From Candidatus Krumholzibacteriota bacterium (GTDB lineage: Bacteria; Krumholzibacteriota; Krumholzibacteriia; LZORAL124-64-63), in NCBI GenBank assembly GCA_024275485.1, contig JAJRZA010000050.1, forward strand, positions 18,033 through 82,032: a stretch of DNA of 64,000 bases. Reading direction: 5' to 3'. A program made the position numbers and the translations under genes. The notes beneath the pieces were generated by a model. That model ran no database searches. It had not been told where the DNA came from and worked only from the letters and a program-made list of their open reading frames with translations. Of the stretch, positions 13,771 through 16,145 are shown one piece after another (position 1 is the stretch's first letter; each line of letters begins with the position of its first letter).

Positions 13771-14583
13771 ATGGATTTAGGACTCAAGGGAAAGACGGCC
13801 TTGGTCATGGCGGGCAGCCGTGGATTTGGTCGGGCCGTGGCATTGGAGTTGGCAGCTGAAGGTGCCAAGGTGGCTCTGTGTGCGAGGAACGCCGAAGACC
13901 TGGCCACCACTGCAGAGGAGGTTCGCTCTGTGGGCCAGGAGGCCTGGGGGGAAATGGCCGGAGCGGTGTTGGCGCAACCCCTTGATGTAACCGATGACCA
14001 GGCCGTGCGGGACTTTGTAAGTCTCACCCAATCCGACTTGGGCTCGGTGGACATCATGCTGGTCAACGCCGGCGGGCCACCCGCTGGAAATTTCGAAGAT
14101 CTGGATGAACATGACTGGAAGGTTGCCTACGAACTGACTCTCGAAAGTTCGGTGCGGCTTTGCAAACTTGTTTTGCCAGGGATGAAATCGAGGGGTTGGG
14201 GGCGAATTGTCCAGATCACTTCCGTGAGTGTGGTGCAGCCGGTGGAAAACCTGATGCTTTCCAGTGTCCTGCGTCCGGCGGTGCATGCTCTCACCAAAAC
14301 TCTTTCCGATGAAGCGGCGCCCTTTGGAGTGACCGTCAATTCCATTGCGCCGGGGTTTCACAACACCAGTGCTGTGCAGCGTCTGATCGCTAAGAAAGTG
14401 GAGCAAACGGGATGCGCCCCTGAGGATGTGATTGCCGGCTGGACCAAGGAAATTCCAGTTGGGCGTTTGGGGGAACCCGAAGAGTTGGCAGCTCTTATCC
14501 TGTTTCTGATGTCCAAACGGGCGAGTTATCTCACGGGACAATGCCTGGTTTCGGACGGCGGGTGGGTCAAAAAAACATTCTAA
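13771..14583 (+). CDS. SDR family oxidoreductase (3-oxoacyl-ACP reductase-like)
   Basis: AGSRGFG, NAGGPP, TVNSIAPG, GRLGEPEE and SYLTG motifs. Confidence 0.9.
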   Translation: MDLGLKGKTALVMAGSRGFGRAVALELAAEGAKVALCARNAEDLATTAEEVRSVGQEAWGEMAGAVLAQPLDVTDDQAVRDFVSLTQSDLGSVDIMLVNAGGPPAGNFEDLDEHDWKVAYELTLESSVRLCKLVLPGMKSRGWGRIVQITSVSVVQPVENLMLSSVLRPAVHALTKTLSDEAAPFGVTVNSIAPGFHNTSAVQRLIAKKVEQTGCAPEDVIAGWTKEIPVGRLGEPEELAALILFLMSKRASYLTGQCLVSDGGWVKKTF

Positions 14584-14609: not shown

Positions 14610-14637
14610 TTGACAGAAGAAGTTCCTTTCCTATCTT
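14610..14637 (+). promoter_or_regulatory. Putative sigma70 promoter (TTGACA-N16-TATCTT) for the small-gene pair
   Basis: Consensus -35 in an AT-rich intergenic region. Confidence 0.45.
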
Positions 14638-14716
14638 ACTATCAATAAAGTATGCAATTAAATAATCTCGGTGTTGGCAGTTTTAATTCCTTCACAGGGT
14701 ATCAGGGAGTTCGTGC

Positions 14717-14902
14717 ATGAAAGAACTGATCATATTTGTGGTCTTCTACTTCGTCTTGGTGAAATTTATTTTTCCCAAGATGGGATTGAAGCCCGGTTGA
14801 GGTCCAAATGCGTGCTCGATCGGTGATCGAGATTCGTCGGACCCAACCCCAGGTTCCTCAAAAACCGCAGGTTCCGCTCCGGAGCCCCAAAAACTGGATT
14901 GA
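14717..14902 (+). CDS. Candidate 61-aa membrane selenoprotein MKELIIFVVFYFVLVKFIFPKMGLKPG-U-GPNACSIGD...QKLD (27 aa if UGA is a stop)
   Basis: RBS AGGGAG at 14704-14709 and ATG at 14717; hydrophobic TM segment; in-frame TGA 14798-14800; frame stays open to TGA 14900-14902; SECIS-like hairpin follows the UGA. Absent from the ORF track. Confidence 0.65.
14801..14843 (+). other. SECIS-like stem-loop 1
   Basis: Upper stem CTCGATC/GATCGAG (perfect) with apical loop GGT 21 nt after the UGA; lower stem GGTCC/GGACC. Confidence 0.6.
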
Positions 14903-14919
14903 AAGCTGGAGGTGGCGCA

Positions 14920-15138
14920 GTGCCGCTTTACGAATTCACCTGCAAAAAATGCGGGCAAAATTTTGAAGAGCTGATGACCTTGGCTGAATTGAACGACGGC
15001 AAGTTGAAGTGTCCTGCCTGTGATTCGAAACGCCTTGAGCGGGGATTCTCGGCGTTTGCCACTGGAAGCAGCGGTGTCGGTGGGAGTTTTGCCGGCGGAA
15101 GCCCAGATTGCGGCAGCGGCGGATTCACCTGAGGCTAG
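14920..15138 (+). CDS. FmdB-family zinc-ribbon protein, probably ending ...CGSGGFT-U-G (ends at 15132 if UGA is a stop)
   Basis: RBS GGAGG and GTG at 14920; MPLYEFTCKKC...CPACDS; Gly-rich tail; TGA-GGC-TAG at 15130-15138. Confidence 0.85.
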
Positions 15139-15143
15139 AAAAA

Positions 15144-15168
15144 TTCTGGTAGCCGTGTGTTGCCGGAA
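15144..15168 (+). other. SECIS-like stem-loop 2
   Basis: 10-bp stem TTCTGGTAGC/GTTGCCGGAA (three G-U pairs) starting 11 nt after the UGA; loop CGTGT 21 nt after the UGA. Confidence 0.45.
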
Positions 15169-15221
15169 AAAATAATGATAATAACTCCACAGCCTCTTGG
15201 CTCTGGAGTTTTATTTTGAAT

Positions 15222-16145
15222 TCAACACGGTCGGTTTTTCAGGCGATCACGGGCCACATCTCCCAACCGGCTGCCGAAGTACATCACCAGCCAGCCGAGG
15301 AGCAGTCCGGCAAATACGTCGACCACATAATGATACCGGTTGTAAACGGTGCTCATGCAAAGGAGCACGAAAATCGTTGTCATCCACCAACGATGCCGTG
15401 GGAAAAGTTTCCAGGTGTGCCACCAGGGAACCATGGAAGCGGCTACATGACTGCTGGGGAAGGCAGCCCCCAGAATGGCTCCATTTTCGTGAATATGTCG
15501 CATGATGTCAGTGAAAATCCAACCGCCCACATCCACATATCCTGCCTTGAAATACTTGGGGCCCCAGGCGGGGAACAGCGTGTAGAGCGTATAGCAGATG
15601 AGCATGGTGGTGCCGAGATCGCGAACGAAAGCCCGCACCGCATCCCACCGCTGGTCATCGGCCAGACCCTTGGCCCGCAAGGCAAGGGCGATAAATGAAA
15701 CAGCAAGGAAGTAGTAGGAAAAATAGGCAAACTCCATCAACTCGTGAAACCAGGCCCAAGGCCATACCCGCGACCATTCCAGGCTGGGTTGGAAACCGAA
15801 TATTGCCTGTTCAATTTTGATCAGGGCCGGATCAAGGCTGTTCTCGAATTCAAAAAATACCAATCCCAGGTATTCCATTTCGCCATAGAAAAATGGGAAG
15901 AGCAGCGGCAGGTAAATTTCCCCCAGCAGTCGCAATACAAAGTGACGGCTGCAACGCAGCATGGGTGGGAGGAACCAAACCCCCAGGGATAGACCAGCAT
16001 GCACAGCCATGTTAACCCATGGTTTGGGAGAAACGCCCGGTCGCAGGAAGGGATAAAAGGCACTGACCAGAAGATAGACCACCACCCAGCGGTCCATGTT
16101 CATGCGCCGGAGGGAAAGTTCAACAAGGGTTCGTCGCCAGGTCAA
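15222..16145 (-). CDS. PAP2-superfamily membrane phosphotransferase, Aur1/inositol-phosphorylceramide-synthase-like
   Basis: Multi-TM; FPAWGP, AAFPSSHV and STVYNRYHYVVD motifs; TTG start overlaps the upstream stop. Confidence 0.8.
   Translation of the reverse strand: MTWRRTLVELSLRRMNMDRWVVVYLLVSAFYPFLRPGVSPKPWVNMAVHAGLSLGVWFLPPMLRCSRHFVLRLLGEIYLPLLFPFFYGEMEYLGLVFFEFENSLDPALIKIEQAIFGFQPSLEWSRVWPWAWFHELMEFAYFSYYFLAVSFIALALRAKGLADDQRWDAVRAFVRDLGTTMLICYTLYTLFPAWGPKYFKAGYVDVGGWIFTDIMRHIHENGAILGAAFPSSHVAASMVPWWHTWKLFPRHRWWMTTIFVLLCMSTVYNRYHYVVDVFAGLLLGWLVMYFGSRLGDVARDRLKNRPC

What the first reader, a model, noticed from the sequence alone, without database searches (positions are those of the whole stretch)
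14717..14902. Unannotated small membrane protein with in-frame UGA and SECIS-like hairpin (candidate selenoprotein)
Seen: RBS and ATG, a 27-codon TM-helix ORF, TGA, then 33 more sense codons (GPNACSIGD...). The extension ends just before the next gene's RBS. Right after the UGA is a hairpin with a perfect 7-bp upper stem and a GGT loop 21 nt downstream. Established: bacterial SECIS elements lie immediately 3' of the Sec UGA with a G at the start of the apical loop. Inference: a 61-aa membrane-anchored U-x4-C redox or metal-binding microprotein that gene callers would miss. I cannot tell whether the family has already been described.
Basis: partly seen in the sequence, partly recalled or inferred. 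Interest (0 to 1): 0.85.

Follow-up and report, generated by a model that had tools for sequence, protein, structure and literature searches.

The report
Small membrane selenoprotein missed by annotation
A 61-residue, single-helix membrane protein whose in-frame UGA almost certainly encodes selenocysteine belongs to a widespread protein family absent from the libraries and review searched, and it sits in a two-gene unit with a zinc-ribbon partner.

Summary

**The gene.** It runs from ATG 14717 through UGA 14798-14800 to the true stop at 14900-14902. It encodes a 61-aa protein with an N-terminal transmembrane helix followed by a U-x4-C motif.

**Conservation of the UGA.**
- The genome has tRNA-Sec, SelA, SelB and a Sec-containing SelD.
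- In its phylum, 143 of 208 genomes carry the gene. All 147 matches keep an in-frame TGA, while the terminal stop varies (14 TGA, 6 TAA, 9 TAG).
- P20, G23, U28 and C33 are invariant across 12 Sec and 18 Cys forms.
- Metagenome proteins include 69 forms with Cys at the Sec position and 66 forms cut off exactly before it.

**The hairpin.**
- It meets all four published bacterial SECIS constraints.
- It is conserved (92.6% of cells paired, against 23-57% when slid) and covaries (A-U to G-C through a synonymous Asp site).
- In Planctomycetota it recurs with different sequences.
- It coincides with the S-I-G-D-R codons, so that peptide motif probably reflects RNA constraint.

**Known families.** No Pfam or NCBIfam family matches, and none of the 119 families in a 2026 review fits.

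**The partner.** An FmdB zinc-ribbon gene follows directly. In sister lineages that partner carries a Sec close to its C-terminus.

**Function.** This is inferred only. The likeliest role is a thiol/selenol relay at the membrane.

The parts
14610..14637 (+). Promoter-like site (TTGACA, 16 nt spacer, TATCTT) in the gap after the upstream SDR gene
   Evidence: 10 of 12 consensus matches, against a mean of 0.5 such sites in shuffles. This is a consensus match only and function is not shown.
14705..14709 (+). Ribosome-binding site GGGAG, 7 nt before the ATG
   Evidence: sequence. A purine-rich motif in the same place was flagged at 27 of the 29 chosen start codons by my loose six-motif test.
14717..14902 (+). 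Full coding sequence of the 61-aa selenoprotein (27 codons, Sec-UGA, 33 codons, stop TGA)
   Evidence: The same architecture is present in 29 of 29 extracted relatives.
14720..14779 (+). Transmembrane helix (residues 2-21)
   Evidence: AlphaFold2 helix at residues 2-21 with pLDDT about 90; best 17-residue Kyte-Doolittle mean 2.65 for the window's protein (1.85-2.94 over all 29).
14798..14800 (+). Sec-encoding UGA (codon 28)
   Evidence: TGA is kept in every Sec-form relative; it aligns with Cys in 18 Cys-form homologues.
14813..14815 (+). Cys33 codon (the C of U-x4-C). Its last base opens the SECIS upper stem.
   Evidence: this column is invariant in 29 and in 30 sequences.
14795..14848 (+). 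SECIS hairpin. Upper stem 14815-14821 with 14825-14831, apical loop GGU at 14822-14824. A lower stem is seen only in this genome and its closest relative.
   Evidence: It meets the four bSECIS constraints quoted.
14900..14902 (+). True stop codon (TGA)
   Evidence: this second stop varies among relatives (14 TGA, 6 TAA, 9 TAG).
14920..15132 (+). Partner gene: an FmdB-family zinc-ribbon protein (Cys form, C-terminus ...DCGSGGFT). Its ribosome-binding site GGAGG is at 14908-14912.
   Evidence: TIGR02605 at 58.6 bits (cut-off 31.3) and PF09723 at 48.4 bits; adjacency is conserved, and sister lineages have Sec forms.
15183..15217 (+). Terminator-like hairpin followed by a U-run, after the FmdB gene
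   Evidence: the region 15133-15225 folds at -30.2 kcal/mol, z = -4.66. The pattern scan did not list it, because of a mismatch in the stem.

Best explanation
Window 14717-14902 is a real gene for a 61-residue, single-pass membrane selenoprotein.

**How the recoding works.** The ribosome reaches UGA at codon 28. The hairpin that begins 15 nt downstream has a 7-bp stem and a GGU apical loop 21 nt after the UGA. It acts as a bacterial SECIS. SelB carrying Sec-tRNA(Sec) binds it, selenocysteine is inserted, and translation runs on for 33 codons to the true stop at 14900-14902.

**The product.** It has a transmembrane helix (residues 2-21), a conserved juxtamembrane turn (P20-x2-G23-x2-P26), a U28-x4-C33 pair, and a disordered polar tail that is acidic on average. 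The positive-inside rule predicts that the tail and the Sec/Cys pair face the cytoplasm.

**The operon.** The gene is co-transcribed with the FmdB-family zinc-ribbon gene that starts 17 nt after its stop.

**Shown here by comparison.** The UGA, the hairpin and the downstream Cys are conserved across phyla. Cys-form homologues exist. The Sec machinery is present.

**Inferred function.**
- About 40%: the U-x4-C pair forms a reversible selenenylsulfide at the membrane face. It would exchange with the Cys or Sec on the flexible Gly-rich C-terminal tail of the FmdB partner, and would be fed by thioredoxin-type reductants.
- About 25%: the same pair binds a soft metal or metalloid, or carries sulfur or selenium.
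- The remainder: some other role.
For: **Machinery.**
- tRNA-Sec, selB, selA and selD are all above their curated cut-offs, and selD carries an in-frame TGA.
- TGA is a normal stop here: 20 of 42 long ORFs end in it.

**The UGA is kept.**
- 35 of 35 matches at E <= 1e-3 in the first 61 genomes carry an in-frame TGA.
- So do 147 of 147 matches in 143 of 208 genomes of the phylum, and 24 of 25 matches in 24 of 251 Planctomycetota genomes.
- The second stop varies: 14 TGA, 6 TAA, 9 TAG in 29 loci.
- By my own arithmetic, if the first stop were ordinary with the roughly 48% TGA use seen here, 29 of 29 TGA would have odds of about 6e-10. Related genomes are not independent.

**The protein is conserved across the UGA.**
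- P20, G23, U28 and C33 are invariant in 12 Sec forms plus 18 Cys forms.
- A start codon lies 26-30 codons before the UGA in 29 of 29 loci.
- In close pairs, differences after the UGA sit mostly on the third codon position. L024/L025 show 4, 0 and 11 differences at positions 1, 2 and 3, and L021/L022 show 3, 3 and 9. There are no frame-breaking indels.
- The C-terminal PQKL[DE] is kept in the genus despite in-frame length changes.

**Cys homologues.**
- Of 206 database relatives, 69 have Cys at the Sec position, 66 end exactly before it, 16 have W there, 48 escaped my regex and 7 have other residues.
- Cys forms were confirmed on DNA in Thermoguttaceae, Terriglobia, Planctomycetaceae and Blastopirellula records.

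**SECIS.**
- All four constraints of the published bSECIS model are met (text seen): a 3-nt loop, a 7-bp stem, G in the first loop position, 21-nt spacing, and MFE -13.9 to -26 kcal/mol.
- The helix forms standard pairs in 92.6% of cells across 29 sequences, against 23-57% when slid. One pair covaries: AU 20, GC 7, GU 1. This is Ile ATC with Asp GAT changing to Val GTC with Asp GAC.
- Hairpin enrichment is 26 of 30 against 8.4% of controls in the own phylum, and 13 of 22 against 8.1% in Planctomycetota, where the stem sequences differ.
- selD of the same genome has a like hairpin: 8 pairs with a bulged U, a GGG loop at +20, -7.4 kcal/mol.

**Operon.**
- The FmdB gene starts -1 to +55 nt after the second stop in 26 of 29 loci found by script. 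Two more are visible in the printed frames, and one locus ends too early to tell.
- A promoter-like site lies upstream and a terminator-like hairpin follows FmdB.

**Functional hints.**
- In families f3, f7, f8 and f9 of the phylum, the FmdB partner follows in 15 of 17 loci. In all 15 it has an in-frame UGA 2-4 codons before a stop (7 TGA, 4 TAA, 4 TAG), then a short G+C-rich hairpin shortly after the stop in nearly all 15 (11 show a GGCGGUCCGCC-like core by eye). That UGA aligns with the C-terminal Cys of the window's FmdB.
- In Planctomycetota a thioredoxin gene lies within 1.5 kb in 4 of 27 loci scanned (L085-L111). One locus reads Trx-FmdB-small gene. Three genomes read small gene followed by a YgaP-like_TM gene; in the one whose upstream flank I read (L051), ArsR and Trx genes precede it.
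- One database protein is fused to a thioredoxin.
Against: - There is no experimental evidence of any kind. No RNA run was listed, and no proteomics or selenium labelling is available.
- In the single window the hairpin is only modestly better than shuffles (z = -2.47).
- No Rfam family matches.
- The hairpin lies inside coding sequence, so RNA and peptide constraints are confounded. The G-D-R residues are kept in two lineages whose stems are in different registers.
- The polar tail is poorly conserved, and AlphaFold2 gives no fold beyond the helix (mean pLDDT 68).
- The phyletic test could not discriminate, because 200 of 208 genomes of the phylum have selA.
- That the W-bearing database forms come from TGA is my inference. 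Their DNA was not seen.
- The function rests only on motif type and gene neighbours. The neighbours differ between phyla, and thioredoxin is nearby in only a minority of loci.
Confidence: 0.88

Rival explanations
1. The UGA is a true stop. The product is the 27-residue hydrophobic peptide, and the conserved hairpin is an RNA element (attenuator, processing or stability signal) in the leader of the FmdB gene.
For: Gene callers report exactly such 26-42-residue products: 66 of 206 relatives. The hairpin lies between the short ORF and the FmdB gene. No expression data contradict this reading (one search listed no RNA holder).
Against: - The stop is TGA in 147 of 147 matches in the phylum and 24 of 25 in Planctomycetota, whereas the downstream stop varies.
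- 69 relatives have Cys at that very position and continue with the same x4-Cys spacing.
- Variation after the UGA is biased to the third codon position and preserves the frame, and the C-terminal PQKL[DE] is conserved.
- The FmdB start is tightly spaced from the second stop, not the first.
- The hairpin fits the bSECIS model.
Confidence: 0.04
2. The UGA is read through as a standard amino acid (Trp, Cys or Gly), either by near-cognate decoding or under a changed genetic code. Selenocysteine is not involved.
For: 16 database relatives are printed with W at this position, and a few with G, S, R or L.
Against: - TGA ends 20 of 42 long ORFs in the window, so the code is standard.
- The genome holds a complete Sec system.
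- A SECIS-type hairpin at the right distance is conserved and covaries.
- The W forms are most simply gene calls made under a TGA=Trp table. This is my inference.
Confidence: 0.03
3. It is a genuine selenoprotein, but the U-x4-C site binds or hands over a soft metal or metalloid, or carries sulfur or selenium (persulfide or selenide trafficking). It is not a redox relay.
For: - In three Planctomycetota genomes the Cys form is followed by a YgaP-like_TM gene; in the one whose upstream flank I read (L051), ArsR-type regulator and thioredoxin genes precede it and RND efflux genes follow.
- A Terriglobia locus has DUF302 next to it.
- The partner is a 4-Cys zinc ribbon.
- Several listed bacterial selenoproteins are metal-handling proteins: MerT-like, SO_0444, CopZ-like (table seen).
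Against: These contexts come from a few genomes. The main lineage has only SDR, FmdB, PAP2 and epimerase neighbours. No metal-transport gene lies beside it in the window. A two-residue site is a weak metal site unless the protein pairs up or uses its partner.
Confidence: 0.25

Closest known systems
Bacterial selenoprotein genes decoded through an in-frame UGA and a downstream bSECIS hairpin (fdhF type; model of Zhang and Gladyshev as quoted in PMC13188914)
   Same: An in-frame UGA followed by a hairpin with a 3-nt G-first apical loop, a 7-bp upper stem and 21-nt spacing, inside the coding sequence. Sec/Cys pairs occur among homologues. SelA, SelB, SelC and SelD are present.
   Different: The protein family itself matches none of the 119 families tabulated in that 2026 review, and no Pfam or NCBIfam model. 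The motif is U-x4-C, not the usual UxxC or CxxU. The protein is only 43-77 residues long (29 forms) and has a single transmembrane helix.
Eukaryotic SELENOK / SELENOS (recalled, not tested here)
   Same: The architecture is analogous: a short single-pass membrane protein with an N-terminal helix and a disordered cytosol-facing tail that carries Sec.
   Different: No sequence relationship was found or expected. Their Sec is at the extreme C-terminus and is decoded through a 3'-UTR SECIS. Here the Sec lies 8 residues after the helix and is paired with a Cys.
TsoA, the 'LULAXC motif' selenoprotein (NCBIfam NF045695)
   Same: An uncharacterised bacterial selenoprotein with Sec and Cys a few residues apart (U-x3-C).
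   Different: That model has 144 positions. It gives no match anywhere in this genome at E <= 10 and none to the protein. The source paper (PMC12013261) is not held, so I could not read it.
YgaP-like transmembrane domain, DUF2892 (PF11127)
   Same: A small membrane protein ending in ...P-x-x-x-x-G-[IV]-x-T-C. That motif resemblance is recalled and seen by eye. A PF11127 gene lies directly after the Cys form in three Planctomycetota genomes.
   Different: Pfam scans of the window's protein and of 10 Cys or W forms give no PF11127 match at E <= 1. PF11127 proteins have two helices, and this family has one.
FmdB-family zinc-ribbon proteins (TIGR02605 / PF09723), including the FmdB selenoproteins reported from GOS data (PMC2398784)
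   Same: The neighbouring gene is a member, at 58.6 bits against a cut-off of 31.3. The family is already listed as containing selenoproteins.
   Different: This applies to the partner, not to the finding itself. The published Sec is described as lying in a CxxU motif (passage seen; the review's table gives 'UxxU'). The Sec seen here in sister lineages is 2-4 residues from the C-terminus, with the hairpin after the stop.

Membership tests
Bacterial selenoprotein gene (Sec-UGA plus bSECIS) | An in-frame UGA conserved among orthologues, never replaced by TAA or TAG | tested here: met
   147 of 147 matches in the phylum, 24 of 25 in the Planctomycetota sample with the other one a Cys form, and 29 of 29 extracted loci.
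Bacterial selenoprotein gene (Sec-UGA plus bSECIS) | Homologues with Cys aligned to the UGA, and sequence conservation on both sides of it | tested here: met
   18 Cys forms align with 12 Sec forms, and P20, G23, U/C28 and C33 are invariant. 69 of 206 database relatives have Cys at the position.
Bacterial selenoprotein gene (Sec-UGA plus bSECIS) | A bSECIS: a 3-9 nt apical loop with G in its first two positions, a 4-16 bp upper stem, 16-37 nt from the UGA, and MFE <= -7.5 kcal/mol (legend quoted) | tested here: met
   GGU loop, 7-bp stem, 21-nt spacing, -13.9 kcal/mol for UGA to +45 and -26 for the whole hairpin. Conservation and one covarying pair. Enrichment over control TGAs.
Bacterial selenoprotein gene (Sec-UGA plus bSECIS) | tRNA-Sec, SelA, SelB and SelD in the same genome | tested here: met
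   All are above their curated cut-offs.
Bacterial selenoprotein gene (Sec-UGA plus bSECIS) | Selenium actually incorporated into the polypeptide | not testable with these tools
   This needs 75Se labelling, ICP-MS or peptide mass spectrometry.
Any curated protein family (Pfam-A, NCBIfam release 20) | A score above the family's curated cut-off | tested here: not met
   Window protein: 0 NCBIfam families at E <= 1, and only a chance Pfam match at E = 0.36. Ten Cys or W forms: nothing at or near a cut-off. Three Sec forms from other lineages of the phylum: 0 families.
TsoA (NF045695) and 'hypothetical protein DG' (NF049953) | A match of the family model at this locus | tested here: not met
   NF045695 gives no match in the genome at E <= 10. 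NF049953 gives only two weak matches, on other contigs.
YgaP-like_TM (PF11127) | A match of the Pfam model | tested here: not met
   No match at E <= 1. A neighbouring gene in Planctomycetota does match, at 47.7 bits.
Rfam RNA families (for the hairpin) | A match to any curated RNA family | tested here: not met
   only three chance matches with E > 1, none of them on the hairpin.
FmdB zinc-ribbon family (the partner gene 14920-15132) | TIGR02605 / PF09723 above their cut-offs, and two CxxC pairs | tested here: met
   58.6 bits (cut-off 31.3) and 48.4 bits (cut-off 34.4). C8, C11, C31 and C34 are invariant.

The most novel reading that the evidence does not exclude
The small gene and its FmdB neighbour together form a previously unrecognised two-component selenoprotein cassette, found in at least two phyla. 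One component is a membrane-anchored U-x4-C microprotein. The other is a soluble zinc-ribbon protein whose flexible Gly-rich tail ends in Sec or Cys. That tail would act as a swinging arm, as in thioredoxin reductase, passing reducing equivalents (or a bound chalcogen or metal) to and from the membrane face. This would be the first single-pass membrane microprotein family among bacterial selenoproteins, and a first functional handle on the very widespread but unexplained FmdB family.
Probability: 0.3. Interest if true: 0.8.

Novelty: new variant of a known kind. Interest (0 to 1): 0.62.

Why it matters
**Annotation.** Bacterial selenoproteins are routinely mis-annotated, and very small proteins doubly so. 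This family is present in most genomes of one phylum (143 of 208) and in about a tenth of a Planctomycetota sample. In public protein sets it appears only as 26-42-residue stumps, as 'W' read-throughs, or as unnamed Cys forms. Adding it would correct many annotations and enlarge the known prokaryotic selenoproteome.

**A useful example.** A conserved peptide motif (S-I/V-G-D-R) coincides with the SECIS hairpin codon for codon. This is a caution for motif-based functional inference in selenoproteins.

**The FmdB family.** The pairing with an FmdB zinc-ribbon protein, which itself switches between Cys and Sec near its C-terminus, gives a concrete and testable hypothesis for a large family of unknown function.

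Tried and rejected
I sent a narrower alignment, A3. Its pattern allowed only C or W at the Sec position, so it could find Cys forms only. One of its five loci (L055, an actinomycete) is spurious.
I obtained genome handles first and then scanned.
- **A Pfam call** failed because one reference contained stop codons.
- **The phyletic test** (does the gene follow the Sec machinery?) was uninformative, because selA is in 200 of 208 genomes of the phylum.
- **Rfam** gave no relevant match.
- **AlphaFold2** on A1 gave only the transmembrane helix; the rest has low confidence. I ran no fold search because the model has no fold to compare.
- **ESM Atlas.** The nearest cluster scored 0.87, below the 0.9 lead threshold. 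It is an unnamed 'hypothetical protein' cluster, mostly Planctomycetota, and adds nothing on function.
- **Sequencing runs.** No RNA holder was listed.
- **Complex prediction** was not used. The small protein can only be given with TGA read as a residue, and that tool's text admits proteins by genetic code 11 only. The 27-residue code-11 product is under its 30-residue minimum.
- **Neighbour clustering** is noisy because of spurious ORFs in G+C-rich DNA. I relied on motif-anchored counts instead.
- **My first hairpin regex** missed the '...PG-U' forms.
- **Three of the 20 regions** fetched from other families of the phylum (L117, L128, L130) did not show the motif with my regex, and I did not pursue them.
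- **Literature.**
  - Haft and Gwadz preprint (10.1101/2022.07.06.499078): passages only, nothing on this family.
  - deep-Sep (PMC12013277): passages only.
  - AEM 2026 review (PMC13188914): passages, and section 7 parts 1-2 with the whole of Table 1.
  - GOS paper (PMC2398784): passages.
  - BSepDB (PMC13326102): passages.
  - Haft and Tolstoy 2025 (PMC12013261): not held, and a title search did not find it.
  - The groundwater MAG study by Deng et al. cited in the review was not found in one search.
  - Supplementary tables are closed and could list candidate families that I could not see.
  - The statement that the family is not in print rests on searches and on the review's table only.
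Full report
**1. The observation**

The sequence is as described.
- GGGAG lies at 14705-14709 and the ATG at 14717.
- 27 codons for a hydrophobic peptide follow, then TGA at 14798-14800.
- 33 further sense codons follow, then TGA at 14900-14902.
- The ribosome-binding site (GGAGG, 14908-14912) and the GTG start (14920) of the next gene come next.
- Read with TGA=U, the product is MKELIIFVVFYFVLVKFIFPKMGLKPG-U-GPNACSIGDRDSSDPTPGSSKTAGSAPEPQKLD, with U28 and C33 forming U-x4-C.
- The hairpin has a perfect 7-bp stem (14815-14821 with 14825-14831) and a GGU loop (14822-24), 21 nt after the UGA.
- The longer hairpin 14795-14848 folds at -26 kcal/mol with z = -2.47. That is suggestive on its own but not decisive.

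**2. The genome can make selenoproteins**

The window's assembly has 106 contigs and is 96% complete.
- tRNA-Sec scores 69.5 bits against a gathering score of 47, and ARAGORN reads anticodon TCA.
- selB scores 330.6 bits, selA 449.5 bits and selD 366.5 bits. selD has its own in-frame TGA.
- TGA is otherwise an ordinary stop: 20 of 42 long non-overlapping ORFs in the window end in it.

**3. Comparative evidence in the same phylum**

The 62-residue read-through was searched in six frames against 61 related genomes.
- It found the gene in all 36 genomes of the same family.
- All 35 matches with E <= 1e-3 span the stop and carry an in-frame TGA.

I extracted 29 of the 30 loci returned. The thirtieth was recovered later. 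Each of the 29 has the following features:
- a start codon 26-30 codons before the TGA;
- a hydrophobic helix;
- the motif [FL]-P-[KR]-x-G-x2-3-U-x3-5-C-[SP]-[IV]-G-D-R;
- a variable polar tail of 4-39 residues beyond the motif.

A purine-rich ribosome-binding site precedes 27 of the 29 chosen start codons by my loose motif test.

The second stop is TGA in 14 loci, TAA in 6 and TAG in 9. The first is TGA in all 29.

In the alignment P20, G23, U28, C33, G36 and D37 are invariant.

A profile search of the whole phylum found the gene in 143 of 208 genomes, all placed in one class.
- By family: f1 86 of 90, f3 39 of 43, f7 5 of 8, f8 7 of 13, f6 3 of 10, f5 1 of 12, f4 0 of 23, f2 0 of 7.
- All 147 matches carry an in-frame TGA, and none is a Cys form.
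- selA is present in 200 of the 208 genomes, so presence or absence of the Sec system could not serve as a test.

In close pairs, changes after the UGA behave like coding sequence.
- L024/L025 have 4, 0 and 11 differences at codon positions 1, 2 and 3.
- L021/L022 have 3, 3 and 9.
- There are no frame-breaking indels.

Within the genus the last residues, PQKL[DE], are kept despite in-frame length changes.

**4. Cys homologues and range**

Two profile searches of the large protein collections were run.
- One gave 68 hits at E <= 0.01.
- The other gave 157 hits at E <= 1e-3, the best at 2.3e-11.

I sorted the 206 proteins fetched by what stands at the Sec position.
- 69 have Cys (...LPRLGVPT-C-MSGxC...).
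- 66 end exactly there, as expected when a gene caller stops at the UGA.
- 16 have W. I infer these were called under a TGA=Trp table.
- 7 have other residues.
- 48 escaped my regex. Many of these are evident ...G[IV][SQR]T-C/W variants.

Cys forms were confirmed on DNA in Thermoguttaceae, Terriglobia, Planctomycetaceae and Blastopirellula records.

In a sample of 251 Planctomycetota genomes, 24 have the gene. 24 of the 25 matches are TGA forms reading ...VPT-U-MSGxC, a direct mirror of the Cys forms.

A joint alignment of 12 Sec and 18 Cys forms leaves P20, G23, U/C28 and C33 invariant and P26 nearly so.

The family signature is therefore: transmembrane helix, then P-x2-G-x2-3-[U/C]-x4-C.

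**5. The hairpin is a SECIS**

The published bacterial model (legend seen) sets four constraints. The window meets all four.

| Constraint | Required | Window |
|---|---|---|
| Apical loop | 3-9 nt | 3 nt |
| Upper stem | 4-16 bp | 7 bp |
| G in the loop | first two positions | GGU |
| Spacing from UGA | 16-37 nt | 21 nt |
| MFE | <= -7.5 kcal/mol | -13.9 for UGA to +45 |

Across 29 sequences the helix forms standard pairs in 92.6% of cells, against 23-57% when the partner is slid.
- One pair covaries: AU 20, GC 7, GU 1.
- This covariation links Ile ATC with Asp GAT to Val GTC with Asp GAC, so it runs through a synonymous site.
- The third positions of the Ser (TCG) and Ile/Val (ATC/GTC) codons, which pair within the stem, are almost invariant.

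A defined hairpin follows the family's UGA far more often than it follows other TGAs in the same loci.
- Own phylum: 26 of 30, against 8.4% of controls.
- Planctomycetota: 13 of 22, against 8.1% of controls.
- Related genomes are not independent.

In Planctomycetota the stems have quite different sequences and encode different peptides, but they keep the position and a G-first triloop.

selD of this genome has a similar element: 8 pairs with a bulged U, a GGG loop at +20, -7.4 kcal/mol.

The conserved S-I/V-G-D-R peptide is encoded codon for codon by the hairpin, and it is mostly absent from Cys forms. I therefore read it as chiefly an RNA constraint. There is a caveat: G-D-R persists in family f3, where the stem is in a slightly different register.

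**6. The protein**

- AlphaFold2 gives a confident helix at residues 2-21 and no structure beyond it.
- Hydropathy is well within the transmembrane range.
- The four N-terminal residues are on average neutral (-0.14). The nine residues from P20 carry +1.5. By the positive-inside rule, which is an inference, the Sec/Cys pair and the tail face the cytoplasm.

**7. The surroundings**

The order of features around the gene is:
1. an SDR gene (13771-14583);
2. a promoter-like site (14610-14637);
3. the small gene;
4. 17 nt later, an FmdB-family zinc-ribbon gene (14920-15132);
5. a strong terminator-like hairpin (z = -4.66);
6. convergent PAP2-family and epimerase genes.

The FmdB gene starts -1 to +55 nt after the second stop in 26 of 29 loci found by script. 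Two more are visible in the printed frames, and one locus ends too early to tell.

I fetched 20 regions from other families of the phylum.
- 17 show the small gene.
- In 15 of those 17 an FmdB gene follows: 3-37 nt away in f3 and f9, 35-120 nt in f7, and about 400 nt in f8. It was not seen in the f5 and f6 loci.

In all 15, the FmdB reading frame has a TGA 2-4 codons before a stop (7 TGA, 4 TAA, 4 TAG). A short G+C-rich hairpin follows the stop in nearly all 15; 11 show a GGCGGUCCGCC-like core by eye. That TGA aligns with the C-terminal Cys of the window's FmdB...GCGSGGFT. These proteins pass the TIGR02605 cut-off.

The partner is therefore itself a Sec/Cys-switching protein, with the reactive residue on a Gly-rich tail.

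In Planctomycetota the neighbours differ.
- A thioredoxin gene lies within 1.5 kb in 4 of 27 loci scanned (L085-L111).
- One locus reads Trx-FmdB-small gene.
- Three genomes read small gene followed by a YgaP-like_TM gene; in L051, whose upstream flank I read, ArsR and Trx genes precede it.
- One database protein is fused to a thioredoxin.

**8. What it most likely does**

The recoding mechanism is standard and well supported.

For the function I commit to a membrane-proximal selenenylsulfide/thiol exchange between U28-x4-C33 and the C-terminal Cys or Sec arm of the FmdB partner, reduced by thioredoxin-type donors (about 40%). Binding or hand-over of a soft metal, metalloid, sulfur or selenium is the main alternative (about 25%). 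Both rest only on the motif type and on gene neighbours.

**9. Comparison with what is known, and novelty**

- The window's protein, ten Cys or W forms and three Sec forms from other lineages match no Pfam or NCBIfam family.
- The TsoA (U-x3-C) and 'DG' models do not hit this locus.
- Table 1 of the 2026 review lists 119 prokaryotic selenoprotein families. None is a small single-helix U-x4-C protein.
- Full-text searches found nothing on it.
- One relevant paper and all supplementary tables could not be read.

I therefore rate it as a new family within a known kind: a bacterial selenoprotein with a canonical SECIS. The C-terminal Sec form of FmdB differs from the CxxU position described for that family in the GOS study. 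It is reported as a side finding.

**10. Verdict**

- Confidence that this is a genuine Sec-decoded gene is about 0.88-0.9. The function remains open.
- Interest is moderate to high. Nothing is new in mechanism, but the family is widespread, systematically mis-annotated and paired with a partner that suggests a testable system.

Noticed in passing
L112-L131 (regions of G100, G081, G091, G076, G048, G198, G113, G085, G096, G200, G201, G086, G079, G122, G197); compare window 14920-15132: In families f3, f7, f8 and f9 of the phylum, the FmdB zinc-ribbon gene next to the small gene has an in-frame UGA 2-4 codons before its stop (for example ...GGGU-RPF-stop). The stop after it is TGA in 7 loci, TAA in 4 and TAG in 4. 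A short G+C-rich hairpin lies just after the stop in nearly all 15; 11 show a GGCGGUCCGCC-like core by eye. The UGA aligns with the C-terminal Cys of the window's FmdB. This looks like a C-terminal Sec form of FmdB, at a different position from the CxxU form described in the GOS study. A second TGA read as Sec would produce an apparent U-x(2-4)-U pattern.
   Followed up: partly
G000 contig C1:20138-21055 (locus L018): The genome's selD is itself a selenoprotein (...FAKSAG-U-AAKLSPGDL...). Its SECIS-like hairpin has a GGG triloop 20 nt after the UGA.
   Followed up: yes
Whole phylum (208 genomes): selA is present in 200 of 208 genomes, and in 125 of 125 of the high-quality ones. Selenocysteine use appears universal in this phylum.
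   Followed up: no
G208 (genome of L051): C87:10016-10171 and C408:3199-3351: One Thermoguttaceae genome holds both a Cys-form copy and a second, weaker match (E = 2.9e-8) that carries an in-frame TGA. My regex did not recognise the second (L088).
   Followed up: no
L051:392-1917 and the like loci L053 and L054 (also held as L085-L087): In Planctomycetota the Cys form sits in the order ArsR-type regulator, membrane-anchored thioredoxin, small protein, YgaP-like_TM (PF11127) protein. In L051, RND efflux genes follow. The end of the YgaP-like protein (...CP...G..PC) resembles the family's ...LP..G.PTC motif by eye, but no profile match supports kinship.
   Followed up: partly
Protein P0150 (208 aa): This is a database protein in which the small Cys form is fused in frame to a thioredoxin domain (WCGPC). 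It could be a natural fusion or an assembly or frame artefact.
   Followed up: no
Proteins P0087, P0097, P0059, P0194, P0206 and P0094: A few database relatives show G, S, R or L at the Sec/Cys position. Several of these codons are one base from TGA, so they may be real substitutions or sequencing variants. Their DNA was not seen.
   Followed up: no
window 15133-15225: Two strong hairpins follow the FmdB gene (-30.2 kcal/mol, z = -4.66). The second is followed by a U-run, so it is terminator-like. It lies between this operon and the convergent PAP2-family gene. The pattern scan missed it because of a stem mismatch.
   Followed up: partly
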